From a virus, in IMG/VR virus record IMGVR_UViG_3300002053_001113, positions 18,650 through 82,649 of that record: a stretch of 64,000 bases of DNA. One strand, 5' to 3'. Each line of letters starts with the position of its first letter. The first letter of the stretch is position 1. Positions 1-64,000 of the stretch are shown piece after piece. The position numbers and the translations under genes are program-made. Below the pieces are notes generated by a model that saw only the letters and a list, made by a program, of their open reading frames with translations, made no database searches and had not been told where the DNA came from.

Positions 1-2
1 TT

Positions 3-2969
3 GGAAATAATAATAGTGTTGTACAGATGTTATATACGATAAGAAATGTTAGTCAGGCAAACAATAGTTTAGTTTATTGGACTGCTTGGTGTAATGACAG
101 CGCTGGCAATGTATTTAATGGGTTGCAACAAGCTTATTGGGTACGACAGGAAGATAATAATGGAAGTTGGTTTAATGGTACATGGACAAATGAAAATAAT
201 ACAATAGATGGAAACTGGTCAAGTTGGGGATATTTAACAAGTCCAGGATGTGGAAATGTAGGTTATGGACAATTTTATTTTAACTATACAATTCCAGAAG
301 GAGCATTAAGAGCAAACTTTTCATTTAGAAGAGGCGGGTTGTCAAACAGTTCTTATATAGTTGATGATGTTGATGCTGGGTGTATTGAGAATAATAATGG
401 AATATTGATTATGCGTGCAGCTATACAAAGTGGGTTTACAAGTCTACCACAATGCAACTTTTATGGTTATCAAAGATGGCAATGTTGGAATGGTAGTACT
501 TGGCAAACAATTTATAATAAAGCTTTCTCCTACCCAAATGTGTATAGTGATGCTTATATTTATGAGGAGACTACGTATTGGGAATATAATGATGATATAC
601 AAACTATTAACGTGACTGATGTTACATTGCCAGCAATTTCAGTGGGCGATGGAAATAGTTTCAGTACAAATAATCGTTCTGTAATAAGTAATGCCTTACA
701 TAATTTAAGTTTAAATATAACCTATTTTGATTATAACTTGTTCCAAACGTTTATTAATATAAGTTGTGATACAAGTGGAGAGATTTATTATTGGGAGGAA
801 CTGAATTGGAATCAGACAAGTTATACACACATTGATGAAGTTGATTTAACTGGGTTGCCAATGCAAAGATGTGTATTTTTAACAGGAGCAAGTGATGACC
901 ACACTGATAACACAATAGGTGATTATAAGGTTAAAAAAATTGATAAAGGATTTGAATGGGAAACAGATAGAGGAATAAAGATTAAAATTGAGAATTTAGA
1001 TACTGGTAGTGGTGATATTGATAGTATGGAAAGTACAAAAAAGGATGACAGATATTCATTTAGTTTTAATTACAAGGATAAAAAGAATAAGAGGACATTT
1101 ATAGTTGAAAGTGATAAGATACTTTATCCAATAATTGACAGTAATTACCCAGCTCATTTTGTAGCTTGGAACCCAGAAACAAAAAGTGGAAATTGGATAG
1201 ACTTTGCAGAATATGATGTAAATGGACTTGTTAAGAAAGATAAGGAAATAAAAATAAAACAGATTAATGATTATAGATATGAGGTTGAAGTAAAGAGTGA
1301 TAAAGATATTGATAGTTTAGGATTTAATTCAATAGGTGGAACCAATGTTAATAATGCAAGTTACAGCTTTTATATAGGAGGAGCTGTAAATGTAACTGGG
1401 CTTAATGTATATGATAATGGTAGTATCAGTAATTTTTCAGTTGTTGTAACAACAAACAACTCCTATCCAGGATATAATGGAACCCAGTACATAAATTCCA
1501 CTCAAGGGTGGGTGCAAAATTTATCAAATGGAACTTACACCTTTACCTTTGTGCACCCACACTTTTATAATCAAACTTACTTTATAAATATAACTAACAA
1601 TTCACAAGACTTTCAATGGAGTAGTTATCAAGGAATAGTGAATATAAGAGCAAGAAATGTTAAGACATTGGTGTATTTAAATGAGCTTAACATTACTGTT
1701 ACTAATGAAGATTCAGCACAAGCTGATGTGCAGAATAATGTAAGTGTTGGTGTGTTTTATCTTAATGCAACAAGTTATAATTTAACTTTGGAAAAAACTG
1801 ATTATGTAACCTATTCAGAAATATTCAATTTAAGTTATCTGGAGAATAAAACAATAATAGTTGAAATGCCATTCTTAGCTACTTTTAGATTATGGGATGA
1901 AAGAACACACGACCCATTTAATATAAGCAGTCCTGATAAAATAAGTTTCTTATTATTCTGCCCCGATGAAACTTATACCACAGAGATAACTGCTGTTAAT
2001 AGTTCAATACCAATAACTTGCAATTATATTAAATTTAAGTTTGTGTTAGATTATGGAGCTACAAGTTATTATCGTACATTTATACTTGACCCAGATGAGG
2101 CACTTGATGTAGATATATATCTAATAGATTTATTAACAACACAATATATTTATAACAGTTTAATATTAGACGATTTACTATCAAGTTATGATAATCCAAG
2201 TATTTATGTAAATAAGATAATTAATGACCAGACTGTACAAATAACGGCTGATTACGTTGATGTGGAAAATAAAATTGGAGCATATTTGATAGAGAATCAT
2301 GAATATATAATAGAGGTGCACAGTGATAATAATCCTGTAAGAGTGCTTGGGTTCTACTCTGCAGATATAAGTGGAGAAAAAGTATTAAAACTTTATGATA
2401 TAACATTACAACCAACACCTTCTGGAGTAATTAAAGATATAAGTTATGTTGTTGATATTGTTAATACTACAGGTGATGATATATTAACTGCTGTTTATGA
2501 TGATAAACAAAATCTAACGACTGCTGTAACCTTTACTGTGGTTAGAGATACCTATAATGGAACTGTGTTATATACAAGTACAGTAAGTGGTGAATCACAA
2601 ATACAGTTTGAATATAATATTACACCATATGAGAATGTAACACTTTTTGCTGAGATGCAAATACAAAGACCAACAGGTGACTTTACATATACAAAGAGAA
2701 TAAGAGAGGTTACACAAATAACTTTGGAGATATTCCAATTTGTAAGTCAAAGCTGGTTTAATTGGTTCTTTACAATATTGTTAAGTGTAATAGCAATTTA
2801 TGCTACGATTAAAACAGCAAATCAGGTCACAGCAGCATTACTTGGATTAGCAGCATTATTTGTAATATTTGGTTGGTATGGAGTAAGTTGGGGTGTGCTT
2901 GGTTTATGCATACTTGTGGCGTTACTTGCAATTCTTAAAGAAGGAAGTGGAGGTCGTAAGATAATATGA
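3..2969 (+). CDS. Large membrane-anchored glycoprotein, putative virion spike/end-filament protein (5' truncated by window)
   Basis: Frame is open from the window edge; many N-x-S/T sequons; beta-rich ectodomain; 2-3 C-terminal TM helices; lies upstream of the capsid-like genes. Confidence 0.55.
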   Translation, partial: GNNNSVVQMLYTIRNVSQANNSLVYWTAWCNDSAGNVFNGLQQAYWVRQEDNNGSWFNGTWTNENNTIDGNWSSWGYLTSPGCGNVGYGQFYFNYTIPEGALRANFSFRRGGLSNSSYIVDDVDAGCIENNNGILIMRAAIQSGFTSLPQCNFYGYQRWQCWNGSTWQTIYNKAFSYPNVYSDAYIYEETTYWEYNDDIQTINVTDVTLPAISVGDGNSFSTNNRSVISNALHNLSLNITYFDYNLFQTFINISCDTSGEIYYWEELNWNQTSYTHIDEVDLTGLPMQRCVFLTGASDDHTDNTIGDYKVKKIDKGFEWETDRGIKIKIENLDTGSGDIDSMESTKKDDRYSFSFNYKDKKNKRTFIVESDKILYPIIDSNYPAHFVAWNPETKSGNWIDFAEYDVNGLVKKDKEIKIKQINDYRYEVEVKSDKDIDSLGFNSIGGTNVNNASYSFYIGGAVNVTGLNVYDNGSISNFSVVVTTNNSYPGYNGTQYINSTQGWVQNLSNGTYTFTFVHPHFYNQTYFINITNNSQDFQWSSYQGIVNIRARNVKTLVYLNELNITVTNEDSAQADVQNNVSVGVFYLNATSYNLTLEKTDYVTYSEIFNLSYLENKTIIVEMPFLATFRLWDERTHDPFNISSPDKISFLLFCPDETYTTEITAVNSSIPITCNYIKFKFVLDYGATSYYRTFILDPDEALDVDIYLIDLLTTQYIYNSLILDDLLSSYDNPSIYVNKIINDQTVQITADYVDVENKIGAYLIENHEYIIEVHSDNNPVRVLGFYSADISGEKVLKLYDITLQPTPSGVIKDISYVVDIVNTTGDDILTAVYDDKQNLTTAVTFTVVRDTYNGTVLYTSTVSGESQIQFEYNITPYENVTLFAEMQIQRPTGDFTYTKRIREVTQITLEIFQFVSQSWFNWFFTILLSVIAIYATIKTANQVTAALLGLAALFVIFGWYGVSWGVLGLCILVALLAILKEGSGGRKII

Positions 2970-3388
2970 ATATAGTTATTAAGTTAATGGTTTTTAGTAT
3001 AGTATTAAATTTTGCCACAGGTGTAATGATGGCAGCTATACCTGCTTTTGATGTTTCAAATACTGGAGGACTTGTTTATGAGACTGATTATGCAGGAGAG
3101 TTTGTGAGTGGAATGAATCAAACAATTCAACCAGTGAGTGAGTTAGAGAGTAAAGGAGACCAAATTTATAGGTTGTTAGACTTAATGAATTTAGGATTTA
3201 TAAATAAATTGATACAGACAATAGATAAATATATGTTTGGGTTTGTAAATATTTTACAAGCAGTTATTGGGCCTGCATTAGACCCAGCAGTACGAACGAT
3301 AGTATTTAGTGGACTAAAAACTATAATAACAATAGGTTATTTATTTGGAGCATTCTATCTATTTACAGGTAGAGATGTGAGGGACTAA
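2966..3388 (+). CDS. Membrane protein, putative virion component
   Basis: N- and C-terminal hydrophobic segments; ATGA overlap with the previous gene. Confidence 0.55.
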   Translation: MNIVIKLMVFSIVLNFATGVMMAAIPAFDVSNTGGLVYETDYAGEFVSGMNQTIQPVSELESKGDQIYRLLDLMNLGFINKLIQTIDKYMFGFVNILQAVIGPALDPAVRTIVFSGLKTIITIGYLFGAFYLFTGRDVRD

Positions 3389-3389
3389 A

Positions 3390-3680
3390 ATGGTTAATGC
3401 AACAGGATGGACAGAACTTTTGGATGCGAACTTAATTGGTGCAGCTTTTACTATGTTTGATACTGCATTTGTTGGGTGGACTGTTGCTATATTATTTTTT
3501 GTTTTTCAGTTTATGATAATAGTAAAAACCAGAAACGTGACTATTGCTTGGACTGTTGGAATATTGTTCGCAAGTCTTTATGCTGTAAGTGCATTTGTAA
3601 AACCAATTAGCATACAAGTAATATTTTTATTGTTGGTTTTTGAATTAGCAGGCATAATATATTTATTATTGTGGAAATAA
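3390..3680 (+). CDS. Small multi-TM membrane protein
   Basis: About three hydrophobic helices in 96 aa; operonic spacing. Confidence 0.6.
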   Translation: MVNATGWTELLDANLIGAAFTMFDTAFVGWTVAILFFVFQFMIIVKTRNVTIAWTVGILFASLYAVSAFVKPISIQVIFLLLVFELAGIIYLLLWK

Positions 3681-3681
3681 A

Positions 3682-3909
3682 ATGGCGAAACGAAAAGTTA
3701 TCATTACAAATAACAGAGAAATTTATGAAAAACTTAATATGCTAAATTTTTCACCCGAGGTTGTATTAAAAGGTGTGAAAGAACTTCAAATTAATAGAAT
3801 ATTGAATAACATTAATAGTTCAAGTAAAATCTTAGATAGTGAGATTTTAGGCGACTATATACTTATTAAAAAAATTGGTCCAATTAACTATCAAGTATAT
3901 TTAAAGTAA
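3682..3909 (+). CDS. Hypothetical protein
   Basis: ORF in tight operon. Confidence 0.45.
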   Translation: MAKRKVIITNNREIYEKLNMLNFSPEVVLKGVKELQINRILNNINSSSKILDSEILGDYILIKKIGPINYQVYLK

Positions 3910-3976: not shown

Positions 3977-4201
3977 ATGTTTATGCAAATAGCAATTGGG
4001 GCAATTGGAATTGGTGTTGTGTTAATGGTAGGTTATTTAGTTATTGCTCAGGTAAGAGCTGCACTACCAACCACAATTAATGATAGCAATTTGACAGCAG
4101 CTTTGTCAAGTACACAAGCAACAGTATTTGCAGGATTTGGGTTAATCGCTGTAGGTATAATTGTGTTAGCAGCATTTGGACTGATTAACATCTTTAAATA
4201 A
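3977..4201 (+). CDS. Putative major capsid protein copy 1 (spindle-shaped-virus-type hydrophobic helical hairpin)
   Basis: 74 aa; two hydrophobic helices joined by a polar loop with an NLT sequon; GGAGG RBS. Confidence 0.7.
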   Translation: MFMQIAIGAIGIGVVLMVGYLVIAQVRAALPTTINDSNLTAALSSTQATVFAGFGLIAVGIIVLAAFGLINIFK

Positions 4202-4231
4202 GACTTGCTGAAAAGCGGAGGTAATTAGAAG

Positions 4232-4528
4232 ATGTTTATGCAGATAGCAATTGGAGCTATAGGAATTGGCGTTGTACTAATGGTTGGCTATTTAGTAATA
4301 GCACAGGTTAGAGGTGCTTTGCCAGTACCACAGATTAGCAATCCGTGTTATGGAACAAACCTAACAGGTGATTGTGCAGGAGGTGACAACACCAGTTTAT
4401 TGATTAATGACCCAGGTTATGTTTCAGGAATAACAGGAACACAAGCGACAGTATTTGCAGGGTTTGGTTTGCTTGCTGTAGGAATTATTGTACTTGCTGC
4501 ATTTGGTTTAATTAATATTTTCAAATAG
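4232..4528 (+). CDS. Putative capsid protein copy 2 with extended Cys-containing loop
   Basis: Same helices as copy 1; loop is about 25 aa longer, with 2 Cys and NLT/NTS sequons. Confidence 0.7.
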   Translation: MFMQIAIGAIGIGVVLMVGYLVIAQVRGALPVPQISNPCYGTNLTGDCAGGDNTSLLINDPGYVSGITGTQATVFAGFGLLAVGIIVLAAFGLINIFK

Positions 4529-4585
4529 GCAGGTTCATACAACGATAGAGTTTTAATAAAAAAACACAACGGAGGGATAGCCAAA

Positions 4586-4807
4586 ATGTTTATGCAGATA
4601 GCAATTGGGGCAATCGGCATTGGCGTAGTCCTTATGGTTGGATACCTTGTGATAGCACAGGTAAGAGCTGCATTGCCAGCTTCTGCTGACGGAAACGTCA
4701 CTGCAGGTTTGGCAAGCACGCAGGCTACTGTGTTTGCAGGTTTCGGCCTAATTGCCGTCGGTATAATTGTACTGGCTGCATTTGGACTCATCAACATCTT
4801 TAAATAA
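4586..4807 (+). CDS. Putative capsid protein copy 3
   Basis: Same helices; loop with an NVT sequon; followed by a T-rich tract. Confidence 0.7.
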   Translation: MFMQIAIGAIGIGVVLMVGYLVIAQVRAALPASADGNVTAGLASTQATVFAGFGLIAVGIIVLAAFGLINIFK

Positions 4808-5047: not shown

Positions 5048-5368
5048 ATGTTAATAGAACTTTTTATATTTTTTCAGATTGTTGTACTGGTATTGTTTGC
5101 AGTTTCTTTTTTTACCAAACAAGAGGTACTTTGGGCACTGACCATTGTAGTTGCTGGAATTTTGATGTTTACTGCCTATCATGTTGAAACTTATGTGTAT
5201 GAATATAATACTACCACAGGTGCTTATGACCCAATGATAGTTTCACACAATTATCCATATTTAATGGGCATCAATTTATTATTTTTTGTATTGGCTTTAA
5301 TATTTGGCTTATTTGATTTGTTTGATAAGTATGGTATAAAGCTTAAAAAGAAAAGACGGCAGGTGTGA
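5048..5368 (+). CDS. Membrane protein (3 TM)
   Basis: Hydrophobic helices with a basic C-terminal tail. Confidence 0.6.
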   Translation: MLIELFIFFQIVVLVLFAVSFFTKQEVLWALTIVVAGILMFTAYHVETYVYEYNTTTGAYDPMIVSHNYPYLMGINLLFFVLALIFGLFDLFDKYGIKLKKKRRQV

Positions 5369-5369
5369 T

Positions 5370-7301
5370 ATGAGGTTAAAGGCTCTAGTAATTTTAATAA
5401 TGCTGGTTCTACTTTGTAATCTTTCTTTTGCTTATAATATTTTTAGTCCAGAGAGTCCACCAGGTGTTGCACCAGGACAAGTTTGTTTAATTTCTGGTGG
5501 AACTGGGTGCAATATGAGCGGACCAATTTATATGAATAATAATAATATTTATGATGGTGTATTTATTAATGCGACGTGGGTTGGAATAATTTATATTAAT
5601 GCAACACAAGTTTTAAATGAGTATTGGGTAAATGAAAGTGGAGACATAATGACTGGAGATTTAAATATGAACAATAATGATATTCAGAATGTTGGTGAGT
5701 TTACAAACTTTTTTGATACTATGTGTCCTGGTAATCAATATATTTATGATATAAATGATAATGGTAGTTTTTCGTGTGGGACACCAATTGACACCTGGTG
5801 GCCACTAGGCGGTAGTTTTTTATATAATTGTAGTGGAAGTTTATGTTTTGATGAAAGTAAATTAAATGATACTATTGATGCAAGAGATACAGACACCTGG
5901 TGGCCAATTGCAGGTTATTTAATTAATGATAGTGGAAATTTAAATGTTAATGAAAGTATGTTAAATAAAACAATAAGTGGAGTAATTAATTTTTCAGAAC
6001 ATTGGGTTGATGAGGAAGGAGACACAATGAGTGGAGATTTAAATATGTCTTTTCATAACATAAGTGAAGTTGCTACTATAAGAGCAGATTATTATGGTAG
6101 TAATTCACCAATTAGATTTGTTGATGAGAATGGAACTGTTATTGCTCAGATGTCAACAACAAATTACACAGGTTGGGGTAGTGAGTATGGTGATATAGTG
6201 GCAAGGACAATAACAGTAGATAGGCTAATAATAAGAGGGTTATTGAATTATAGTAATACAGAACCTCCAGATGTATGGGATGCTGACGAGATTTATATTA
6301 ATGAATTTAATTTTACTTTTTATTTTAATGAAAGTATGTTGAACAATACTATTGATACAAAAATTGTGGAGTTTAATTTTTCAAGATGGCCTTTGGGTGA
6401 TGATTATTTAGTTAATTGTTCTGGAAGTTTATGTATGAATGAGAGTAAATTAAATGCAACTATTGAAACAGTTTCTAATGAGACAGACCCATATTTTCAT
6501 TATTATTTTATTTATAATCAGTCAACAGGTTATTTAGAATTATGGGTTAATAATACAAAACAACAGGAGTGGGGTAACTCTACTAATGTTTATGGTAAGG
6601 CAACATTTTATGGAAATTCATTCTTTCAAAATATGACTGGAAACGATTTACTTATAGATGCAAATGTTAGAGTGGCTTATAATATAAATGTAAGTGGTTG
6701 GTATTATGGCAATGGAAGTAGGCTTGAGGGGGTTTGTCTAACAAATGGAAGTGGCTGTGGTCCTAACCAAACTGATACACGTATTAAGTCTACTCCACCT
6801 TATTTGTATGACAATAGCACACATATATTTTTTAATGAGAGTAGATTGAATATAACAATACAAGGTAATCTTAATGATACAGATACACACATACAAGGAG
6901 ATGGTGTTTATTTATATGATAATTATACCACAATGTTTTTAAATGAAAGTAAGTTAAATAATACAATAACGTCGTTGGCAGATGTAAAGGCTTATGAATA
7001 TAATTTTACAGTTGTGGTGAGTGGAGGGACAGGAAGTGCAGTATCAGGCCAGACTTTTAACTATTTGATTACACAAGTGACAGTATATCCGCCAACAACT
7101 CCTATAAGTTACCATTTTGAGCTTAATGAAACAACAAGTGGTGATATAATTGATAGAGATAGAAAGGCACACACAGGGGTTTGGGATATCTATAAACAAC
7201 ACAGTTTGAATGATAGTGTAACAGCAACTATCACAAATTCAAATCAGGATGGTAATTTTACTGTTAGAATAAAGTATATTGATAATGTAATACAGGTATA
7301 G
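5370..7301 (+). CDS. Secreted fibre-like repeat glycoprotein
   Basis: Signal peptide; repeats of YLxNxSGxLxFNESKLNxTI; two WVxExGDxMxGDLNM motifs of the kind seen in viral fibres. Confidence 0.55.
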   Translation: MRLKALVILIMLVLLCNLSFAYNIFSPESPPGVAPGQVCLISGGTGCNMSGPIYMNNNNIYDGVFINATWVGIIYINATQVLNEYWVNESGDIMTGDLNMNNNDIQNVGEFTNFFDTMCPGNQYIYDINDNGSFSCGTPIDTWWPLGGSFLYNCSGSLCFDESKLNDTIDARDTDTWWPIAGYLINDSGNLNVNESMLNKTISGVINFSEHWVDEEGDTMSGDLNMSFHNISEVATIRADYYGSNSPIRFVDENGTVIAQMSTTNYTGWGSEYGDIVARTITVDRLIIRGLLNYSNTEPPDVWDADEIYINEFNFTFYFNESMLNNTIDTKIVEFNFSRWPLGDDYLVNCSGSLCMNESKLNATIETVSNETDPYFHYYFIYNQSTGYLELWVNNTKQQEWGNSTNVYGKATFYGNSFFQNMTGNDLLIDANVRVAYNINVSGWYYGNGSRLEGVCLTNGSGCGPNQTDTRIKSTPPYLYDNSTHIFFNESRLNITIQGNLNDTDTHIQGDGVYLYDNYTTMFLNESKLNNTITSLADVKAYEYNFTVVVSGGTGSAVSGQTFNYLITQVTVYPPTTPISYHFELNETTSGDIIDRDRKAHTGVWDIYKQHSLNDSVTATITNSNQDGNFTVRIKYIDNVIQV

Positions 7302-7311
7302 GTGAGACAAA

Positions 7312-9396
7312 ATGAAAAAACTAATAATAATACCAATATGTTTGTTGTTTGTAATACCTTTTATTATGGCTGACCAGACTGTGAAAACTGTTGAAATACC
7401 TTTAGGATATGAGGCTATGGCAGGTGCTAATACAATTTATTATTATAATTTAAGTGTTGATTACCCAGATGGAATTGATAGAGTGTTGGCAATGGAAATA
7501 TTAGTTAAAGGAGATTATGCTGCTAATACAATATCATATGCAGGATTTTTGGTTGATGATACAGTAGTATATTGCACACCATCACAATGGACTATTTATT
7601 TAACATCAAATAATTATGAAATGAGTTTTGATTGCACACCGTTATTACAAAGTGCTAATTGGCAAGGTGGAAATATAACTTTTGTAATGATGAGTGATAC
7701 GCTTTCTGCTAATGTAAAAACAAGAGTTAAATTAACATATTACAATAATCCATTAGCCAGTATGATTGTAACTGGAACTTATTATGAAAGTGGCGATATT
7801 GGAAGAGTTTATGTTCAAGTGGCTGATGATGGAGTTCCAGTTACCAATGCAAGTTGTTATGCTACTATTTATGCACCAGACTATACTATATGGGCTGATA
7901 GTCAATTATTAGTTGAACTACCAGGTGAATCAGGTATGTATGTTTATCCATTTGTAGCACCCAACGAGACTGGTGTTTATGGCATAGCTGTGAGTTGTCA
8001 GTATGATTATAGTACATTTTGGGTATATCAGGCAGATGATATTGATTATGTTGATTATACTGTAACACTTGGTACTTGGGATGGAGGAGCTGCTATTAAT
8101 TTAAATGATTATGCTGATGGTTTGTATATGGCGTTTACATCAGGAGGAGGAGCAACAAAAAGTGTTGATGTATATTATGATTTTGATATAACTGGTAAAG
8201 TAACTATAGATAATACAACAGATATATATTTACATTGGTTGGGAGAGGCTACAGGTACACCAACACTTACTATGTATTGGTGGAATTGGACAAGTGGTGT
8301 TTGGGTAACTTTTCCAGACACATTAACACTTTCAGGAAAAGGAGGAACAGCTGCACCAACAGGCGCTGATGACTATTTATCAAGCAAATTTTTGTTTGAC
8401 AATTATAATGATGTTATAAATAGTAGCAATATTATTAGAGTTAGAACACTGCTGGGGGGACCAGCAATTTTTAATTATTGGCATAATTGGTTGGCGTTAC
8501 GTTTTAACTCACCATCTTCATCAACCTTAAGCCAAATTAGAGGTGGGGGAGAGATAAATGTAAAAAACAGATTAGAGGATATACCGTTTAATGTTTGGAA
8601 TTATACAAACAGAACGCTAACAGCAACAGGACAACATTGGGTAGGAAAAACTGAATATGTACCAAATGAGATAGGAAAGGTAGTTATTAGAGCTATTGAT
8701 TCTAATGGAGAACCATTGGAGGGAGCTGATTGTGAGGTGGGTGTAGTTTATCCAAATAATACTTTTTATATTAATAGAAGTAATATGACTGAGTGGGCAG
8801 GTAATATAACTGGTATTTATTATTTTGATTTCCTTGTTCCAGATGTTTCAGGAATATATACTTATGGTGTTGATTGTTTTAAAGGTGGAAAAGATTATTA
8901 TATGTTAAATACGTTCCACGTGGTTGTTCCAGAAGTTTATGCAGTAAATAATATAACATCTGAGGAGATTTGGAATTATACAAATAGAAATTTAACTTAC
9001 TATCCACCAACCACAACTGCAGAAGGTGTTTGGAATTATACAAATAGAACGTTGACATATTATGAAGATGTTACAAATTATACCTTAATTCCAATTGATG
9101 TTTGGAATTATGCAAACAGGACACTAACGTATTATGATGTAAATAATATAACACCAAATGATATCTGGGCATTTATTAATAGAAATTTAACTTACTACCC
9201 ACCAACAACAACTGCAGAGCAAATTTGGAATTACACAAACAGGAATTTAACTTATTATGAGGATACAACAAATTACACAAGAATACCAGATGATGTATGG
9301 GGTTATAGTGGTAATGTTACAAGTAATTTATTAGCACAATTTGCAACAGACATTTGGGGCTATGTGGCAAGATATACACACGGGGTGGTGATATAA
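7312..9396 (+). CDS. Secreted glycoprotein with duplicated Ig-like domains and C-terminal WNYTNRxLTYY repeats
   Basis: Signal peptide; two related 'A.C...I.YP....G.Y.Y.F..P...G.Y...V.C' domains; 6 or more WNYTNR repeats. Confidence 0.55.
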   Translation: MKKLIIIPICLLFVIPFIMADQTVKTVEIPLGYEAMAGANTIYYYNLSVDYPDGIDRVLAMEILVKGDYAANTISYAGFLVDDTVVYCTPSQWTIYLTSNNYEMSFDCTPLLQSANWQGGNITFVMMSDTLSANVKTRVKLTYYNNPLASMIVTGTYYESGDIGRVYVQVADDGVPVTNASCYATIYAPDYTIWADSQLLVELPGESGMYVYPFVAPNETGVYGIAVSCQYDYSTFWVYQADDIDYVDYTVTLGTWDGGAAINLNDYADGLYMAFTSGGGATKSVDVYYDFDITGKVTIDNTTDIYLHWLGEATGTPTLTMYWWNWTSGVWVTFPDTLTLSGKGGTAAPTGADDYLSSKFLFDNYNDVINSSNIIRVRTLLGGPAIFNYWHNWLALRFNSPSSSTLSQIRGGGEINVKNRLEDIPFNVWNYTNRTLTATGQHWVGKTEYVPNEIGKVVIRAIDSNGEPLEGADCEVGVVYPNNTFYINRSNMTEWAGNITGIYYFDFLVPDVSGIYTYGVDCFKGGKDYYMLNTFHVVVPEVYAVNNITSEEIWNYTNRNLTYYPPTTTAEGVWNYTNRTLTYYEDVTNYTLIPIDVWNYANRTLTYYDVNNITPNDIWAFINRNLTYYPPTTTAEQIWNYTNRNLTYYEDTTNYTRIPDDVWGYSGNVTSNLLAQFATDIWGYVARYTHGVVI

Positions 9397-9961: not shown

Positions 9962-9977
9962 ATAGGGGGTTTTAGAA

Positions 9978-10637: not shown

Positions 10638-10638
10638 A

Positions 10639-14939: not shown

Positions 14940-15002
14940 TAAATATATATATATAAAGGAAAAGACAAATTAATCTATTAAAGTAGTGGGTAGAGCGTTA
15001 AG

Positions 15003-46244: not shown

Positions 46245-46293
46245 ACACCCTCCTATTTTTACTATTTATTAAAAATAATAAAAGTAAAAAAAT

Positions 46294-47149: not shown

Positions 47150-47152
47150 TTT

Positions 47153-51193: not shown

Positions 51194-51204
51194 TTTTAAT
51201 CCCC

Positions 51205-51801: not shown

Positions 51802-51852
51802 TTAAATTACCTCCGTTATCTATTTTAAAGTAAATACAACAACTATATAAAC

Positions 51853-56929: not shown

Positions 56930-58402
56930 TTATTCCCAAGAAAAATAGCGAGGAAATAAATATTCAACATAATACCTAGTAGCTTTCTCACCATATTTTA
57001 ATATACAACCTTTAGTAAATCTAGCCAATCTTTCAACATTTAAATAATCATACTCTATTAAATCTTCCTTAAATTTTTTCATATCTTCTTGTATTGTTGT
57101 ATTACTATCTAACTTTAAAGCAGCTGTTGCTTGTTCGACGTGCTCCCAATTAAAACTATCCAATTTTCTATCAACGTATTTTGTCCTAGAAGGCCAAAGT
57201 TTATAAAGTGGTGGTATAAGGTTTGTTATACAAAAAGCATTAACTATGTTCTCATCAAACTGGAATTTTTTATTAGGAAGATTTGTTGGCAAACTACCAT
57301 GTTTTTGTTCTAACTCTCTATGTATCTCTCTAAATTCATTTGTGTTTAAATCAATTTTACTATCCCTCAGTAAGCACTTTATTTGAAACCAGAGGTAGTT
57401 ATTCCTCATACCCTCAGGCAAATCATTCTCTAACATAAACTTAATTAACTTATGCTCCCTCAACTCTCCTTTCTTCATTCTTTCCTTTATTGGTATAGTC
57501 CTACTCTTCACAAAAACACTTCTACGTTTAAATTCTTTAATATCTTTTTCAAAAGATAATACATAATCACTTAAACCTGTATTTTCTTCATTTCTCATTG
57601 CCACAATTCCTCTCCAAGTAAAACTATCATATTTATAATTTTTTGTTTGTGGCAATGCACCCACACGTCCAATATTAAAACAAGCTTTATCAACTTCAAC
57701 CCCAACATCATCTCTAAATTTACGTGCAAACATCATAATATGTTTTCCAATTCCTTTGCGTATAATTTCCTTCATAACTTCAAACTCCTCATTTAACACT
57801 GGATAATAATAATCTTCTTCTCTATGTTTGTGTTTTATAATCTTACTTTTTTTAAACTCAACCTCTGGCATTCTAATAGGAAAATCAAGTTTAATTAAAA
57901 GTTGTACACCATTTCCAGAACAGATTTTAATATAATTATTATTCCAAACCTCTCTTCCTAATTGTTCTAATATTTTTTCAGCTACATAATCACAATTCAT
58001 TAAATCTGCCTTTGTTGCTGAACTATTCTTCTTTTTTAATCTATCAATATCAATAAATATAAACTTAATCTCTTCAACATTAATATCTTTTCCTCCAAAA
58101 TTTTTGTAACCATATATATCAAAATTACGTTTACGTGGATTAATACCAAACCACATTGTAGTTTTATCTCTTACAAAAGCTATTACATTCTTCAGTTGTA
58201 CACTATTATTTATATATACTCCACTTGGACTATATGGTAGTTTGAAACGTTTAGCAGTCTCTCTCATTATATTATAATCTTTAATACGTATCTCCATTAC
58301 TTTATTATTACCATCAGACCACCATTCCCAAAAGTCACTTATAGTAAAATTACTATAAAACTTCTTTATTCTATCATTTTCGTCTAACCTGTGCCACTCC
58401 AT
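56930..58402 (-). CDS. Archaeo-eukaryotic-type primase / primase-polymerase
   Basis: FIDID, SGNGVQL; C-terminal EGMRNN helical domain; adjacent to MCM. Confidence 0.7.
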   Translation of the reverse strand: MEWHRLDENDRIKKFYSNFTISDFWEWWSDGNNKVMEIRIKDYNIMRETAKRFKLPYSPSGVYINNSVQLKNVIAFVRDKTTMWFGINPRKRNFDIYGYKNFGGKDINVEEIKFIFIDIDRLKKKNSSATKADLMNCDYVAEKILEQLGREVWNNNYIKICSGNGVQLLIKLDFPIRMPEVEFKKSKIIKHKHREEDYYYPVLNEEFEVMKEIIRKGIGKHIMMFARKFRDDVGVEVDKACFNIGRVGALPQTKNYKYDSFTWRGIVAMRNEENTGLSDYVLSFEKDIKEFKRRSVFVKSRTIPIKERMKKGELREHKLIKFMLENDLPEGMRNNYLWFQIKCLLRDSKIDLNTNEFREIHRELEQKHGSLPTNLPNKKFQFDENIVNAFCITNLIPPLYKLWPSRTKYVDRKLDSFNWEHVEQATAALKLDSNTTIQEDMKKFKEDLIEYDYLNVERLARFTKGCILKYGEKATRYYVEYLFPRYFSWE

Positions 58403-58781
58403 TTTTTCTACCTGTTATTAGTGCTCCTAAAGATAAACCAAATACAACCCCTCCAACAATACATAATTTATTACCTTGTTTTATTTGTCTAGCCCCTAAT
58501 CTGTAACCATCATCTAATGTAATTAGCTGCCCATCAGTTAATGTTTCAACATAATTAAAACTTTCATTAACTCCATAATATAATAAAATATAATTCATCT
58601 CTCCTTCCATCTCTTCTAAATTTTGCGCCACGTCCATATTGTGCCAACCTGTTGTAAACATATCAACACCATAAATTATTAAAACCAAACCCAACATAAT
58701 ATCCATTATTATAACTAATCTTGCAATCTCTTCTAACTTTACTTTATTTTTGCGTCTTTTTTTCTTTTTTTCTTTTTTCAT
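58374..58781 (-). CDS. Two-TM membrane protein
   Basis: Hydropathy. Confidence 0.5.
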   Translation of the reverse strand: MKKEKKKKRRKNKVKLEEIARLVIIMDIMLGLVLIIYGVDMFTTGWHNMDVAQNLEEMEGEMNYILLYYGVNESFNYVETLTDGQLITLDDGYRLGARQIKQGNKLCIVGGVVFGLSLGALITGRKNGVAQVRRK

Positions 58782-60937
58782 ATAAACTCACCCTCTGGTA
58801 GTCCAAACTCATCCTTCTTTATTGTGTCCTCCTCAATTTGTTTTTCTATTTCTTTTGCTCTCTCCAAGTCTGGAGGACCATGTATATTATAATCAATAGT
58901 ATCAACAACGTCTAATTTACAATTTGTTTTCTCAATTATCCACTTCAACAAATCAAAATCCTCCTCTTTAATTTCTTTACGTTGATTTATTATTCGCGAT
59001 AACCTAACAACATTATAATAAAACTCCTTTATCCTCGCATCTGCTATTATTCCGTAACTCTCTAATATTTTATCAACTTTATAAAAATGTTCTTTATCAT
59101 CAGCACTTTCTTTATATTCTTTTAAACTGTCAAAAAATGTTTGTATTTCCTCTGCTTTTAATGCTCTTATTAATTCTAAGTTTTCACTTATTGTGTCCCT
59201 TGCCACATTTCCTTTTATAACTTCTGATAGTCCATCGTCTTGTTTTTCATTTACCAAATAAAAGTAAAAAGGAAATCGTTCATGTAAAGCATAATCATAA
59301 CCATCAATCCACCACTGCTCCTTCTGTTTATATTCTATTCGCTTTTCATTAATAACTTTATGTAGGTGAGGGTTTGTATATTTAAATATTGGTTGATGTA
59401 GGTCCCATTTTTCATTCCATTCAACTTTCTCCTCACCACCTATTGTTACATTCAACTCTTTATATGCTTTCCTAATAACTCCTCTGTATTGCCCTAAATG
59501 ATTATAGTCTAAATTTTCACTTATATTCACTTGTGCTTTACGTTTATTAAAAACACCTGTTCCGCCTGCTCTATCATAACCATAATCATCTTCAAGCAAA
59601 AATGTTTTTAAGTTTTGTGTCAACTCTTTATTCTCACCCGCCTCGTCAATATGTATTGTGTTATAAGTGCCTAAATATCCAGTAGTCACTATTTTCTGTT
59701 CCTTACCCATCAAACTTACTACAACTCTAGTCCCTCTCAAAGCAGCTACACTCGTACTCAAACCATTTGTGGTTAAGTTTAAATGGTTGTTAAGCAAAAA
59801 CCCATAATATTTTAATACTGTTGTTTTACCTGTACTTGCTCCTCCCACTAATTGTATATTACCAAATAATTTTCCACCTAAATGTGTAATTGCTTTTTGT
59901 AATATCAACGCCACCTTAACTGGATACAACCCATAAATTTCCATACCTGTTTGTTGTTTAATAAAATTATCTAATGATTTTTGCATTGTAAAAATATAAT
60001 TTTCATCCTCTTTTTTCTCTGGAATATTAAACTTATTTGAGCCTACAGATTTAACATCTATTATTTGATAAAGCTCAGTTTTTCTAGGATTCTTAACTCT
60101 AAATAAAACACAGTCATAAAATCCTGGAGCATATTTATTAAAACTAAATGCTCCTGTAGAGTGTTTATTTCCTTCTTCATCCTCATAACTTATATCATAA
60201 TAATAAGCATCTTTTGTTGTACTTACCTCATTATCTGGATTAAGTTTAGTTCCACAAACACGTATTCTTTCTTCACCTGTTGGACTTATTGTAGTACGAT
60301 ATCCTTCACAACTTATTCTATTATTTGTACTAACTGTATCATAAGCTTTCATATTTGTTTCTGTTTTGCATTGTGTACATTTATAAAAAAACTCAATAGG
60401 ATAATCAAACTTAATACTTGTGGATAGAATTTGTATATAACATCTTTGTAAAACATCAACATTTTGTGGAGTTGTAACTGGCATTGTTTTACTAAAATCA
60501 TATCTAAACACAATATCACCACCTTCATCGCAAGTATATTTTCTTACATCTTTATATACAGTATGTTTGTCTAATACCATATATCTAACTCCACCTTCTT
60601 CTTTTATGTCTAATCCTTTATGTTCAATCTCATCATATTCAACTATACTTTTTCCCAACTCTAATAAAAATCCATTTAATTCTCTCTTAATACTATTTAA
60701 ATCATCTGTTTTTAACATTAATGTTTTTTTATCAAACTTCGTTCTATTGTAATGTAAAAAACCTTTATAATCTTTAACTATTTTATCAACTTTAATATGA
60801 TTTTCCTGTTGTAAAATCAACCTAGTAAGTTTTATAGCACCTAATTTGGAAAGACGCTTAAATTTCTTTTGTATAAATTTAATTACCTCTTTGTTATTAG
60901 AATATTCTCTAATCATACTATCAGTAATTCTTTCCAT
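58778..60937 (-). CDS. MCM-like replicative helicase
   Basis: Zn finger CTQC..C..C; Walker A GGASTGKT; SVAALRG; Walker B IHIDE; ERF arginine finger. Confidence 0.8.
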   Translation of the reverse strand: MERITDSMIREYSNNKEVIKFIQKKFKRLSKLGAIKLTRLILQQENHIKVDKIVKDYKGFLHYNRTKFDKKTLMLKTDDLNSIKRELNGFLLELGKSIVEYDEIEHKGLDIKEEGGVRYMVLDKHTVYKDVRKYTCDEGGDIVFRYDFSKTMPVTTPQNVDVLQRCYIQILSTSIKFDYPIEFFYKCTQCKTETNMKAYDTVSTNNRISCEGYRTTISPTGEERIRVCGTKLNPDNEVSTTKDAYYYDISYEDEEGNKHSTGAFSFNKYAPGFYDCVLFRVKNPRKTELYQIIDVKSVGSNKFNIPEKKEDENYIFTMQKSLDNFIKQQTGMEIYGLYPVKVALILQKAITHLGGKLFGNIQLVGGASTGKTTVLKYYGFLLNNHLNLTTNGLSTSVAALRGTRVVVSLMGKEQKIVTTGYLGTYNTIHIDEAGENKELTQNLKTFLLEDDYGYDRAGGTGVFNKRKAQVNISENLDYNHLGQYRGVIRKAYKELNVTIGGEEKVEWNEKWDLHQPIFKYTNPHLHKVINEKRIEYKQKEQWWIDGYDYALHERFPFYFYLVNEKQDDGLSEVIKGNVARDTISENLELIRALKAEEIQTFFDSLKEYKESADDKEHFYKVDKILESYGIIADARIKEFYYNVVRLSRIINQRKEIKEEDFDLLKWIIEKTNCKLDVVDTIDYNIHGPPDLERAKEIEKQIEEDTIKKDEFGLPEGEFI

Positions 60938-61151: not shown

Positions 61152-61381
61152 CCTTCACACCTTCCATTCAATCATTTTAAAAAAATTTAAAGCCTAAAAT
61201 TATAAAAAATTGTTATATTATTTAAATGTTTTGATTGTGTTTTTCTTATGAAAAACTAACTTTTAAATTTCACCAAAACCACCATTTACTATTTATAAAG
61301 TTTACGGTTCTTAACAACTATTTTTTAAAAAATCACCTAAATTAGAAATCAGTATATTAATATATAAAAATTCTTTCCAAA

Positions 61382-61638
61382 ATACTACTTATTACTAATT
61401 CTTACTAAAAATTATGAATGAAATTGTTAATTTTTAAAAATCTTAACAGTCTATACTAATATACTATATATGTATATTTTTTAATTTTTTGCTCAAAACC
61501 TGTATATACGTCAAAGTGGTATAAATTGTTAAATATTAACAGGATTATTGAAAGATTTTAGTAATAAGTAGTATGGGTTACTAAATTGTTAAGATTTAAC
61601 AATTTATTATAAAAACACATACATACAGGTTTTGAGCA
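61382..61638. repeat. Nested inverted repeats, candidate replication origin
   Basis: 16-bp, 17-bp and 21-bp (1 mismatch) inverted repeats in a divergent AT-rich gap upstream of MCM/primase. Confidence 0.6.
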
Positions 61639-61781
61639 GAAAATTTGAATCCTTGCAAAAAATAGTGATTTTTTAAAAGTGTTGTCACTTAGGAGTTAGT
61701 GACACTCATAATTACCTAAAAACAGGTTGTACGAAATCAAAATGTTTATATAGTAAGTGTACTTTTATATATATGAAGTAA

Positions 61782-63372: not shown

Positions 63373-63630
63373 TGATTAAAAAGAAAGAAATAATATTGTT
63401 TGATTATAGTAAATCGCAACAAGACATTATTTTAGATGACATTGAAAAATCACTTTTAAGATTAGGAATTATTTTATTAATAATTTATAACTATGTGATT
63501 TGGTTTGTATTATAAAATGAAATTAAATATTAATTGGAATAAAAACATAACACAAGGTGGTCACGCTATATATGTTATAGAGAAGGGTGATATTAAAAAA
63601 TTAATTAAAAAGATTTTTTTGGTGATATAA

Positions 63631-64000
63631 ATGAAAGAAGGAAAGAAGATTTATTACACTTGGAAGCAGTTTGATGATGATGTTAAAAAAATTCTAAAAT
63701 TTATTAAACGTAAAAAAATAAAAGTTAAATGGATTTATGGAATTCCAAAAGGAGGACTTGTGTTGGGTGTGGCATTAGCTAACCACTTAAAAGTTCCTCT
63801 GTTTACACAAAGGATGAGTTTATTTAAGTGTGTAAGGATGTTTTATAAGAAGGAAGAGTTAAAACATATTTTAGTTGTTGACGATGTTAGTGATACTGGA
63901 GGCACAATGTTAGATATACCAGACATTATACAACATTACACGGTTACATTACATAAAAAGAAAAGAACACAGTTTACACCAGACTTTTGGTGTAGAGAGA
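63631..64000 (+). CDS. Type I phosphoribosyltransferase (xanthine/guanine PRT-like), 3' truncated
   Basis: Translated by hand: YYTWKQF...GIPKGGL...ILVVDDVSDTGGTM...PDFW. Confidence 0.85.
   Translation, partial: MKEGKKIYYTWKQFDDDVKKILKFIKRKKIKVKWIYGIPKGGLVLGVALANHLKVPLFTQRMSLFKCVRMFYKKEELKHILVVDDVSDTGGTMLDIPDIIQHYTVTLHKKKRTQFTPDFWCRE

What the first reader, a model, noticed from the sequence alone, without database searches (positions are those of the whole stretch)
1..64000. Large (>64 kb) putative spindle-type archaeal virus with a near-complete own replisome
Seen: hydrophobic-hairpin capsid-type proteins and membrane glycoproteins, with no terminase, portal or HK97 gene in the window. These co-occur with PolB, MCM, primase, PCNA, RFC, UDG, Hjc, an SF2 helicase and an integrase. 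Established: Fuselloviridae, Halspiviridae and Thaspiviridae are much smaller, and such full replisomes are more typical of large tailed archaeal viruses. Inference: an undescribed lineage. The style of its surface proteins is reminiscent of DPANN-type archaea, but the host cannot be assigned from this sequence.
Basis: partly seen in the sequence, partly recalled or inferred. Interest (0 to 1): 0.7.

Follow-up and report, generated by a model that had tools for sequence, protein, structure and literature searches.

The report
Large spindle-type archaeal virus, own replisome
This is most of a complete 82.5-kb circular genome of an uncultured marine archaeal virus that appears to build its particle from tiny hydrophobic hairpin proteins, as spindle-shaped viruses do, yet carries its own DNA-replication machinery and belongs to a widespread lineage for which no description was found.

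Summary
The window is bases 18650-82649 of an 82,649-bp IMG/VR record with a 104-bp terminal repeat, and an ORF crosses the junction, so the map is circular (82,545 bp). PolB, a divergent MCM, an AEP primase (by fold), PCNA, an RFC-like loader, UDG, a nuclease-SF2 helicase and a tyrosine integrase are confirmed. The Hjc-like nuclease rests on a lead only.

No terminase, portal or HK97 capsid was found in the window, in the 18.6-kb flank, or in two related genomes of 116 and 125 kb.

Three tandem 73-98-aa two-helix proteins are the best conserved genes, with 938 homologues, the 120 listed at 73-100% identity. Their fold is too simple to assign.

Independent support for a spindle type comes from the flank. 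A 353-aa AAA+ ATPase there has only one PHROG match, the SSV1 B251/His1 ORF16 family, and hhalign to His1 ORF16 gives 94%. A ConA-like lectin giant protein also lies there.

The claim that spindle viruses are much smaller is outdated: ANME-1 spindle viruses of up to 72.6 kb with RNA-primed PolB are published.

Best reading (about 0.6): an apparently undescribed lineage of very large spindle-type or related hairpin-capsid viruses. The host is unresolved. The same scan had already noted this genome's capsid paralogues, its 7-deazaguanine cluster and its Ubl operon.

The parts
1..2969 (+). C-terminal 988 aa of a 1556-aa giant protein (it starts in the flank at genome 16948) with an N-terminal and C-terminal TM segments; candidate adhesin or terminal-fibre protein
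   Evidence: No Pfam family. The C-terminal part is conserved in 34 of 83 related loci.
2966..3909 (+). Three small conserved genes just upstream of the capsid genes: 140 aa (N- and C-terminal TM), 96 aa (polytopic), 75 aa (soluble)
   Evidence: Present in 35, 48 and 49 of 83 related loci. No Pfam or PHROG family where scanned.
3977..4807 (+). Three tandem paralogues (74, 98, 73 aa) of a hydrophobic alpha-helical hairpin protein: candidate major capsid proteins
   Evidence: The ORF at 4417-4797 (-) is an antisense artefact over these genes.
5048..5368 (+). 106-aa polytopic membrane protein, conserved next to the capsid genes
   Evidence: Present in 54 of 83 related loci.
5370..9396 (+). Two large proteins (643 and 694 aa) with an N-terminal hydrophobic segment; variable between relatives
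   Evidence: 11 and 3 of 83 loci
9398..11307 (+). Conserved trio of 187 aa, 219 aa (N- and C-terminal TM) and 222 aa of unknown function; part of the lineage's morphogenetic core
   Evidence: Also present in the 125-kb relative G002 at 36-37% identity.
11373..16874 (+). 1188-aa right-handed beta-helix protein and 623-aa protein, both with N- and C-terminal hydrophobic segments; candidate receptor-binding proteins
   Evidence: Beta_helix 7.7e-9; TM segments
20739..21398 (+). Radical-SAM protein (QueE-like)
   Evidence: Radical_SAM 2.9e-9, Fer4_12 5.7e-5
26541..27816 (-). ThiF-type E1-like enzyme and JAB/MPN peptidase
   Evidence: ThiF 1.1e-32; Prok-JAB 2.8e-8
34524..35663 (+). Tyrosine integrase
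   Evidence: Phage_integrase 1.3e-16; phrog_1 8e-26
40343..40714 (-). Hjc-like PD-(D/E)XK nuclease (lead only)
   Evidence: negative
40692..42545 (-). Family B DNA polymerase with exonuclease domain
   Evidence: 51-59% identical to the G001 gene
43556..48877 (-). 7-deazaguanine DNA-modification cluster: TGT/DpdA-like, 156-aa unknown, glycosyltransferase-like, 81-aa, 59-aa and 112-aa unknown ORFs, FolE, radical-SAM-like, QueD
   Evidence: TGT 2.9e-11, GTP_cyclohydroI 1.4e-53, PTPS 5e-29, Radical_SAM 1.2e-4 (below cut-off), Glycos_transf_1 3.6e-4 (below cut-off)
49728..54012 (-). UDG, RFC-like clamp loader, PCNA, PD-(D/E)XK nuclease fused to an SF2 helicase
56930..58402 (-). AEP-fold primase/primase-polymerase (AEP domain, residues about 17-298) with a helical C-terminal domain
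58778..60937 (-). Divergent MCM-family AAA+ helicase with a four-Cys zinc module (C187, C190, C210, C228) and Walker A at 365-372
61152..61781 (.). AT-rich divergent intergenic region with TTGTTAA..TTAACAA palindromes and a 29-nt inverted repeat, at the minimum of cumulative GC skew; candidate origin or control region (inference)
63631..64000 (+). Start of a 140-aa PRTase-like ORF that continues across the terminal repeat into the start of the record

Best explanation
The window is about three quarters of the complete circular 82.5-kb dsDNA genome of an uncultured archaeal virus from marine sediment or seawater. It belongs to an abundant and apparently undescribed lineage, which includes two IMG/VR relatives of 116 kb (partial) and 125 kb (terminal repeats).

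I read the particle as the spindle-type, or closely related hairpin-capsid, kind.
- Shell: built from many copies of 73-98-aa hydrophobic helix-loop-helix proteins. These are encoded as 1-4 tandem paralogues whose helices are frozen and whose exposed loops vary.
- Assembly: takes place at the membrane, with a conserved B251/ORF16-type AAA+ ATPase and a set of small membrane proteins.
- Attachment: through giant, membrane-anchored lectin and beta-helix proteins.

One genome arm holds these structural genes. The other arm is transcribed from the opposite strand and makes the virus largely self-sufficient for DNA metabolism.
- An MCM-like helicase and an AEP primase start RNA-primed synthesis.
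- PolB works with PCNA and an RFC-like loader.
- A nuclease-helicase, an Hjc-like resolvase and UDG process and repair the DNA.
- A DpdA/FolE/QueD/QueE set puts 7-deazaguanine into the DNA against restriction.
- A tyrosine integrase allows lysogeny.

Shown: the gene identities, the circular map, the conservation pattern, and the absence of detectable head-tail genes.
Inferred: the capsid role of the hairpin protein, the spindle shape, the assembly role of the ATPase, the archaeal host, and the order of events.
For: (1) Hairpin protein.
- It has two helices.
- It is the best conserved gene of the lineage: 938 proteins at E<=0.01 among 947 candidates, and the 120 listed are 73-100% identical. 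Identity is 81% to G001 and 73% to G002, against 23-69% for the other shared genes.
- The paralogue helices differ at 15-22 nucleotides but at only 0-1 residues.
- Copies per related locus: 1 in 15, 2 in 33, 3 in 29 and 4 in 6 of 83 loci.

(2) ATPase in the flank.
- The 353-aa ATPase has a single PHROG match, phrog_5484 (7.3e-6, profile positions 25-230 of 239).
- That family holds SSV1 B251 (5.2e-101) and His1 ORF16 (2.8e-62).
- A 22-sequence profile against His1 ORF16 gives hhalign probability 94.2%, E 1.2e-7, 144 columns.
- BLASTP gives 25% identity over 150 aa, E 0.001.

(3) Published signature. Passages read in 10.1101/2025.02.15.638363 say the signature module of spindle-shaped viruses is a hydrophobic alpha-helical MCP plus an AAA+ ATPase. 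Paralogous MCPs, a tyrosine integrase and a >1900-codon adhesin occur in nanohaloarchaeal members. Passages read in PMC12934983 describe many TM proteins and TM-anchored ConA-like lectin proteins as core genes of Thermococcales spindle viruses. Here the 1807-aa flank protein has Laminin_G_3 at 5.5e-25.

(4) No head-tail genes. No VirB4 or HerA-type ATPase over the cut-off.

(5) Protein language model. The nearest clusters that carry any Pfam family are VP1_VP3 (PF06281) and His1_capsid (PF25665), each at 0.83. This is a lead only.

(6) Replisome and circularity.

(7) Lineage. 30 of 122 ORFs are shared and syntenic with G001 and 20 of 122 with G002. The structural block is conserved in metagenome loci.
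Against: - No sequence or profile link from the 74-aa protein to known spindle capsid proteins. Pfam and PHROGs give nothing at E<=0.01, the PDB profile search nothing at E<=10, and hhalign about 1% to His1 VP21 and SSV1 VP3.
- The fold searches are uninformative. No Foldseek match at E<=0.001 in BFVD or PDB. In the wide VIA search any helical hairpin scores Z 8-10.
- The ATPase link has limited specificity. phrog_5484 also rings in 9 of 14 control cellular genomes. The same ATPase profile scores 88% over 74 columns against the element's own MCM-like family. It scores only 42% over 43 columns against SSV1 B251. tblastn against 50,697 phage records found nothing significant.
- Atlas clusters that hold these proteins are labelled Uroviricota for the few members with a label.
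- Passages in PMC11706807 report multi-copy two-TM 'holins' with a Pacearchaeota homologue in tailed Adrikavirales. I could not test whether that is the same family.
- CheckV rates the record 19% complete, against the terminal repeat.
- No particle, transcript or protein data exist.
Confidence: 0.6

Rival explanations
1. It is a virus, but of another enveloped or membrane-based morphotype: bacilliform, pleomorphic, ovoid or something unseen. The 74-aa hairpin protein would still be the main shell or envelope protein, but the particle is not a spindle.
For: Passages in PMC12934983 say that hydrophobic alpha-helical hairpin MCPs occur in both spindle-shaped and bacilliform viruses. There is no sequence link to any spindle MCP. 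Genomes of 82-125 kb exceed the 72.6 kb given as the largest ANME-1 spindle virus (PMC9894754). Searches give the sizes.
Against: The ATPase matches best the family shared by SSV1 and His1. The whole gene set (paralogous hairpin MCPs, ATPase, integrase, lectin adhesins) is the one described for spindle viruses in 10.1101/2025.02.15.638363 and PMC12934983 (passages).
Confidence: 0.2
2. It is a head-tailed virus (Caudoviricetes) whose HK97 capsid, portal and terminase are too divergent to detect. The 74-aa proteins would then be holin-like or other membrane proteins.
For: Atlas clusters with these proteins carry the label Uroviricota where a label exists. Large archaeal tailed viruses of marine hosts have near-complete replisomes. 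A two-TM multi-copy 'holin' with a Pacearchaeota homologue is reported in tailed Adrikavirales (PMC11706807, passages).
Against: Four head-tail Pfam families matched 0 of 3 genomes in six frames, while the same searches rang in 3-5 control genomes. No PHROG or Pfam head-tail hit appeared among the ORFs scanned. The one unannotated protein of capsid-like size without a predicted TM segment (410 aa in the flank) is barely conserved: a 45-aa match in G001. Holins are not usually the best conserved, purifying-selected, tandemly multiplied gene of a lineage (the generalisation is my own knowledge). IMG/VR scans with the 74-aa profile found only G001 and none of the Adrikavirales contigs, though these are pattern scans and can miss relatives.
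Confidence: 0.08
3. It is not a virus. It would be an integrative plasmid or other mobile element whose hairpin proteins are VirB2/Ced-type pilins, or membrane proteins of a transfer or adhesion apparatus.
For: Conjugative pilins are also roughly 70-aa helix-loop-helix hairpins (my own knowledge). The element has an integrase and a full replication set. No capsid fold is proven.
Against: CagE_TrbE_VirB matched 0 of 3 genomes. DUF87 gave one sub-threshold, 28-position hit inside the SF2 helicase. The sole conserved small ATPase matches the spindle-virus family. The protein starts directly with helix 1, with no leader. IMG/VR holds all three records as viral.
Confidence: 0.1

Closest known systems
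[quoted passage not shown]
   Same: Large genomes, circular in Itzamnaviridae. One structural arm and one enzymatic arm. Hydrophobic alpha-helical MCPs, in two copies in Itzamnaviridae. RNA-primed family B polymerase. Que genes for 7-deazaguanine. Known from marine sediment or vent metagenomes only.
   Different: The largest reported there is 72.6 kb, against 82.5 and 125 kb here. GC here is 28-32%. Homology could not be tested: OP413839 is not in the phage collection, and IMG/VR scans with the capsid and ATPase profiles returned only G001 and G002. The passages I read do not mention an MCM/AEP/PCNA/RFC set or 3-4 MCP paralogues for them.
His1 virus (Halspiviridae) and SSV1 (Fuselloviridae)
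   Same: A 73-74-aa two-helix MCP of the same length and layout as His1 ORF21. A B251/ORF16-type AAA+ ATPase. Small multi-TM proteins and signal-plus-anchor proteins around the MCP gene (annotation). A glycosyltransferase-like gene. An integrase, as in SSV1.
   Different: Those genomes are 14.5 and 15.5 kb, about one sixth the size. His1 uses a protein-primed PolB on a linear genome. MCP sequence similarity is undetectable. ATPase similarity to SSV1 B251 is weak.
Nanohaloarchaeal spindle viruses DNSV-1/2 and Asgard Wyrdviridae (10.1101/2025.02.15.638363, passages read)
   Same: A morphogenetic module of AAA+ ATPase plus paralogous hairpin MCPs. A tyrosine integrase. One very large adhesin-like gene. 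A possible DPANN host.
   Different: DNSV genomes are 20.8-22.1 kb, and the passages I read mention no replisome. Homology to them was not tested, because I held no sequences.
Thermococcales spindle-shaped virus families (PMC12934983, preprint, passages read)
   Same: Hairpin MCP. Many TM proteins in the core. TM-anchored concanavalin-A-like lectin proteins. Replication modules that use MCM or AEP.
   Different: Those replication loci hold one initiator type each, not a full replisome. The hosts are hyperthermophiles. There is no evidence of shared genes.
Magrovirales, large tailed viruses of marine Poseidoniales (PMC11706807, passages read)
   Same: Uncultured marine archaeal viruses carrying archaeal-type replication genes (PolB, primase) and a very large LamG-like protein.
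   Different: They have an HK97 MCP, portal and terminase, none of which was found here.

Membership tests
Spindle-shaped archaeal virus assemblage (signature module as stated in 10.1101/2025.02.15.638363) | Small, highly hydrophobic alpha-helical hairpin major capsid protein | tested here: met
   Met for architecture only. The proteins are 73-98 aa with two hydrophobic helices, are the most conserved gene, and are tandemly multiplied.
Spindle-shaped archaeal virus assemblage | Detectable homology of that protein to SSV VP1/VP3 (PF06281) or His1 VP21 (PF25665) | tested here: inconclusive
   No Pfam or PHROG hit at E<=0.01. hhalign probability is 1.4% and 1.1%. The atlas's nearest named clusters are exactly these two families, but at 0.83, which is lead level. 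Fold searches are non-specific.
Spindle-shaped archaeal virus assemblage | AAA+ ATPase of the SSV1 B251 / His1 ORF16 family | tested here: met
   Only PHROG hit is phrog_5484 at 7.3e-6, the family of B251 and ORF16. hhalign to ORF16 gives 94.2% over 144 columns. Caveats: control comparisons give 88% to an MCM-like profile and 20% to RFC; the family rings in 9 of 14 control genomes; B251 alone gives 42%.
Spindle-shaped archaeal virus assemblage | Lemon- or spindle-shaped virion | not testable with these tools
   Needs microscopy of particles.
Itzamnaviridae / Tepeuviridae | Shared protein clusters with the type genomes, and ANME-1 CRISPR targeting | not testable with these tools
   OP413839 is absent from the phage collection. 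No spacer database was available. The shared layout (two arms, RNA-primed PolB, Que genes) is seen, but layout is not membership.
Caudoviricetes (head-tailed viruses) | HK97-fold MCP, large terminase and portal | tested here: not met
   Each of PF05065, PF03237, PF03354 and PF04860 matched 0 of 3 genomes in six frames. None appeared in the Pfam and PHROG scans of ORFs. Very divergent versions cannot be excluded without folding every unknown protein.
Conjugative / Ced-type DNA transfer systems | VirB4 or HerA-type transfer ATPase beside a hairpin pilin | tested here: not met
   PF03135 matched 0 of 3 genomes. PF01935 gave one hit below the cut-off, inside the SF2 helicase.
Archaeo-eukaryotic replisome components | MCM AAA+ core, AEP primase fold, PCNA, RFC-like loader, family B polymerase | tested here: met
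   MCM; AEP; PCNA; RFC-like; PolB

The most novel reading that the evidence does not exclude
This is a family- or order-level lineage of 'giant' spindle-type viruses. Complete genomes are 82.5 and 125 kb, and related genes sit on contigs up to 183 kb. The lineage is globally common in marine sediment and water and is almost invisible to virus catalogues: I found 3 IMG/VR records (the window's own and two relatives) against hundreds of metagenome homologues. It would hold the largest genomes known for a hairpin-capsid particle. It would also carry a full archaeo-eukaryotic replisome and, in one member, 17 tRNA genes. Its multiple capsid paralogues with frozen helices and variable sequon-bearing loops would form a mixed or switchable surface coat. 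The host could be a DPANN or an Asgard archaeon.
Probability: 0.35. Interest if true: 0.8.

Novelty: new variant of a known kind. Interest (0 to 1): 0.62.

Why it matters
Spindle-shaped viruses are thought to package DNA in an expandable helical lattice of tiny hairpin proteins. How large a genome such a shell can hold is an open question.

- Size. Complete 82.5- and 125-kb genomes with this signature would raise the known ceiling: 72.6 kb in the ANME-1 study, and about 76 kb for large tailed spindle viruses as I recall.
- Complexity. It would show that replisome-level complexity, and even tRNA arrays, evolved outside tailed and giant viruses.
- Detection. The lineage is abundant, yet I found only three IMG/VR records of it (the window's own and two relatives), so it marks a blind spot of marker-based virus detection.
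- Capsid biology. The frozen-helix, variable-loop capsid paralogues give a simple system for studying surface variation in a non-icosahedral capsid.
- Host. If the host is a DPANN archaeon with a genome of about 1 Mb, the virus would amount to roughly a tenth of its host's genome.

Tried and rejected
Fold comparison of the 74-aa protein.
- Foldseek against BFVD and PDB gave no match at E<=0.001. One Nitrosopumilus spindle-shaped virus protein appeared at rank 14 with E 1.9.
- The wide VIA search gave Z 8-10 to designed helical hairpins and many unrelated helices.
- I rejected this route as uninformative for a two-helix protein.

Sequence links of the 74-aa protein. tblastn to 50,697 phage records found no match at E<=1. 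The PDB profile search found none at E<=10.

PolB against phage records. Only remote hits of 23-25% identity, which do not help placement.

ATPase. tblastn to phage records found nothing significant. The PDB profile search found none at E<=1.

Host.
- No tRNA gene in the genome.
- No Rfam family at gathering score in the window.
- No tRNA-like att fragment around the integrase; the only hit was MicF at E 0.8, which is chance.
- GTDB hits lie on 7.6-11.9-kb contigs binned with Thermotogaceae, Rhodobacter and Clostridia MAGs. I take these as mis-binning.
- The tRNAs of G002 are degenerate and AT-rich and gave no domain signal.

Expression. No RNA holder was listed. I did not lay reads.

Habitat. 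Near-identical DNA is held by runs labelled marine sediment or seawater metagenome. Four runs hold 0.73-0.99 of the sampled words, and two of these may be the source.

Complex prediction was not used, because self-association would not separate capsid, pilin and holin.

Literature. Searches found no description of this lineage. A Nanobdellota genome preprint holds none of the words virus, provirus, spindle, integrase or mobile element. Supplements were closed. The tables in PMC9894754 and PMC11706807 that list capsid and 'holin' sequences may bear on whether this family was seen before.

E2 and Ubl of the neighbouring operon. No Pfam family for 27813-28454 or 28484-28810.

Full report
WHAT THE SEQUENCE IS

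The window is bases 18650-82649 of an 82,649-base IMG/VR virus record classed as having direct terminal repeats. The repeat is an exact 104 bases. When one copy is removed, a 140-aa PRTase-like ORF reads straight across the junction. The map is therefore circular or circularly permuted, 82,545 bp, and the record is complete. CheckV's 19% estimate conflicts with this. I take that estimate as unreliable for a lineage without reference genomes.

GC is 31.8%. Coding strand and GC skew switch at about 21.5 kb and about 61.4 kb of the window. This splits the genome in two:
- a + strand arm that starts in the 18.6-kb flank and ends near 21.4 kb;
- a - strand arm from about 21.8 to 61.2 kb.

CHECK OF THE OBSERVATION: REPLICATION AND DNA-METABOLISM GENES

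- Directly by Pfam: PolB, UDG, an RFC-like AAA+ loader, a PD-(D/E)XK nuclease fused to an SF2 helicase, and a tyrosine integrase. PHROGs agrees for the integrase.
- PCNA needed a two-sequence profile with the G001 orthologue. All 15 PDB matches are PCNA or sliding clamps, best 7.1e-5.
- The 719-aa protein gave nothing as a single sequence. A full-library search found 145 representatives of its family. A 39-sequence profile matched 102 PDB sequences at E<=1. The 32 best are all MCM subunits, best 3.4e-7. 8 of the 39 members hit the Pfam MCM P-loop domain. Four cysteines and the Walker A lysine are invariant or nearly so.
- The 490-aa protein had no sequence match anywhere, and none of its 120 listed homologues carries a Pfam domain. 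Its AlphaFold model is confident, pLDDT 91.5. Foldseek's best rows are AEP enzymes, though none reaches E 0.001. In the VIA re-alignment all 50 listed entries are AEP primases or primase-polymerases (Z 9.8-13.1; best is cyanophage S-2L PrimPol at Z 13.1, rmsd 3.2, 175 aligned) over residues 17-298. The DxD aspartates D118 and D120 are invariant in 28 sequences.
- The Hjc-like 123-aa protein rests only on a language-model and structure lead: named clusters with PF01870 at 0.92, and TM 0.68.
- The arm also holds a 7-deazaguanine set (TGT/DpdA-like, FolE, QueD, two radical-SAM proteins) and a ThiF-JAB pair. Earlier readers of this scan had already noted both.

CHECK OF THE OBSERVATION: STRUCTURAL GENES AND THE FLANK

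Three tandem genes at 3977-4807 encode 74-, 98- and 73-aa proteins with two hydrophobic helices. Around them lie small polytopic membrane proteins and large proteins with terminal hydrophobic segments. One of these has a beta-helix domain.

- a second SF2 helicase;
- a 353-aa P-loop ATPase;
- giant ORFs of 1414, 1807 and 1556 aa, the 1807-aa one carrying a concanavalin-A-like lectin domain and DUF2341.

No terminase, portal or HK97 capsid appeared:
- among 58 protein segments scanned with Pfam;
- among 24 of the element's segments scanned with PHROGs;
- in six-frame searches with four head-tail Pfam families in this genome and two relatives (0 of 3 each), while the same searches rang in 3-5 control genomes.

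THE LINEAGE

The 74-aa protein has 938 homologues at E<=0.01 among 947 candidates. The 120 listed are 73-100% identical and sit on contigs up to 109 kb. The ATPase has 412 homologues; the 120 listed are 56-100% identical (58-81% in the intein-bearing forms, where coverage is partial), and 15 of them carry an intein domain. Their contigs reach 183 kb. The primase has 196 homologues.

IMG/VR is far poorer. Pattern scans returned only two relatives:
- G001, 116,032 bp, linear record;
- G002, 125,063 bp, with an 87-bp terminal repeat and GC 27.7%.

G001 shares 30 of my 122 called ORFs in conserved order and G002 shares 20 of 122. The ORFs common to both relatives are:
- the hairpin protein, the 96-aa membrane protein and the C-terminus of the giant protein;
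- the ATPase, the SF2 helicase, and proteins of 170 and 102 aa;
- PolB, the RFC-like loader, PCNA, the nuclease-helicase and a 194-aa protein.

G002, but not the truncated G001 contig (which is cut at the hairpin gene), also has the 106-aa protein, the 187/219/222-aa trio and the integrase.

In 83 further loci (80 of 232 metagenome matches, plus 3 GTDB contigs) the block around the hairpin genes recurs. The counts are limited by short contigs.

WHAT THE HAIRPIN PROTEIN IS

It is the best conserved gene of the lineage: 81% and 73% identity to G001 and G002, against 23-69% for the other shared genes. Its paralogues differ at 15-22 nucleotide positions in each helix but at only 0-1 residues. Nearly all variation lies in the loop. 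Copy number per locus is 1 to 4. That is the behaviour expected of a protein packed in a tight repetitive lattice with one exposed loop.

Its length and layout match His1 ORF21. But I could not link it to any known capsid protein:
- Pfam and PHROGs give nothing;
- hhalign to His1 VP21 and SSV1 VP3 gives about 1%;
- fold searches return any helical hairpin.

The protein-atlas search is suggestive only. Among clusters that carry any Pfam family, the two nearest are the SSV VP1/VP3 and His1 capsid families, each at 0.83, below the level that the tool calls more than a lead.

INDEPENDENT SUPPORT FOR A SPINDLE-TYPE VIRUS

[quoted passage not shown] They add that nanohaloarchaeal and Asgard members have paralogous MCPs, and that the nanohaloarchaeal ones have a tyrosine integrase and a gene of more than 1900 codons taken to be the adhesin.

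- The flank's 353-aa ATPase has one PHROG match, phrog_5484 (E 7.3e-6, nearly full profile length). That family contains SSV1 B251 and His1 ORF16.
- A 22-sequence profile aligns to His1 ORF16 with 94.2% probability over 144 columns. BLASTP gives 25% identity over 150 residues.

The controls temper this:
- the same profile scores 88% over 74 columns against the element's MCM-like family and 20% against its RFC-like protein;
- it scores 42% against SSV1 B251 over the Walker A region only;
- phrog_5484 rings in 9 of 14 control cellular genomes.

I count the ATPase link as moderate.

A 2026 preprint on Thermococcales viruses (PMC12934983, passages) adds that many TM proteins and TM-anchored concanavalin-A-like lectin proteins are core genes of spindle viruses, and that their replication modules use MCM or AEP. 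The lectin giant protein here fits that picture.

RIVALS

- A tailed virus with undetectable head genes is unlikely, for the reasons given above. Two things speak for it. Atlas clusters are labelled Uroviricota where labelled. A paper on Poseidoniales viruses (PMC11706807, passages) reports multi-copy two-TM 'holins' with a Pacearchaeota homologue in tailed Adrikavirales. I could not test whether that is this family, because the supplements were closed.
- A conjugative-pilin reading lacks its ATPase.
- A different hairpin-capsid morphotype, such as bacilliform, cannot be separated from a spindle by sequence.

COMPARISON WITH WHAT IS KNOWN, AND NOVELTY

The ANME-1 study (PMC9894754, passages) describes Itzamnaviridae and Tepeuviridae with structural and enzymatic arms, RNA-primed PolB and Que genes, the largest at 72.6 kb.

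What is different here:
- size: 82.5 kb complete, and 125 kb with terminal repeats in a relative;
- a full MCM-AEP-PolB-PCNA-RFC set;
- three to four capsid paralogues;
- 17 tRNA genes in G002;
- the abundance of the lineage in metagenomes against its near absence from IMG/VR.

I could not test homology with the ANME-1 viruses. Six literature searches found no description of this lineage. I therefore rate it a new variant of a known kind.

HOST AND HABITAT

The replisome is of the archaeo-eukaryotic type, and genes are packed in long co-directional blocks, with Shine-Dalgarno-like motifs before 56 of 122 ORFs. I infer an archaeal host from this.

Only one named record with a capsid homologue is a Pacearchaeota MAG. 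One is labelled 'bacterium', and three GTDB hits sit in bacterial bins on short contigs. The DPANN idea is neither supported nor excluded. An Asgard or other low-GC sediment archaeon is equally open.

Runs labelled marine sediment and seawater metagenomes hold near-identical DNA, and no RNA holder was listed.

VERDICT

- Observation: confirmed.
- Interpretation: partly supported.
- Best explanation: a very large spindle-type (hairpin-capsid) archaeal virus with its own replisome, confidence about 0.6.
- That it is an archaeal virus-like element of an undescribed, widespread lineage: about 0.85-0.9.

Noticed in passing
window 43556-48877 and 20739-21398: 7-deazaguanine DNA-modification genes: TGT/DpdA-like, FolE, QueD and two radical-SAM proteins. 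A glycosyltransferase-like gene and several small unknown ORFs (156, 81, 59 and 112 aa) lie between them. No QueC was seen among the proteins scanned.
   Followed up: partly
window 26541-28810: ThiF-type E1 and a JAB peptidase overlap by 47 bases.
   Followed up: partly
G001 (L013) 56658-59803; G002 69670-71713 and 112056-114952: In the relatives several core genes are interrupted. PolB of G001 is two ORFs of 592 and 459 aa, against 617 aa here. The ATPase and PolB of G002 match in two pieces about 1.1 kb apart. 15 of the 120 listed ATPase homologues carry an intein domain, PF14890.
   Followed up: partly
G002, L105 15007-19820: A cluster of 17 tRNA genes in the 125-kb relative, and one tRNA-Thr in G001. 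This genome has none.
   Followed up: partly
window 61152-61781: A 630-bp AT-rich divergent intergenic region at the GC-skew minimum, with several TTGTTAA..TTAACAA palindromes and a 29-nt inverted repeat (90% complementary). Candidate origin or control region.
   Followed up: partly
window 51205-51801: The PCNA here is 198 aa against 243 aa in G001. The alignment shows about 35 residues missing near the C-terminus. Whether it still forms a ring is open.
   Followed up: no
window 29989-30339, 38602-39516, 56207-56875: A small SLOG/DprA-like protein (DNA_processg_A 1.4e-7), a DUF932 protein (3.7e-13) and a cupin-domain protein (6.7e-16). Their roles are unknown.
   Followed up: no
whole record: CheckV completeness values of 19%, 70% and 73% are attached to records of 82.6, 116 and 125 kb, although two of them have terminal repeats. 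The estimator seems to have no suitable reference for this lineage.
   Followed up: no
window 4417-4797 (-): A 126-aa ORF antisense to the capsid paralogues. It matches relatives only because it mirrors them, so it is an ORF-calling artefact.
   Followed up: yes
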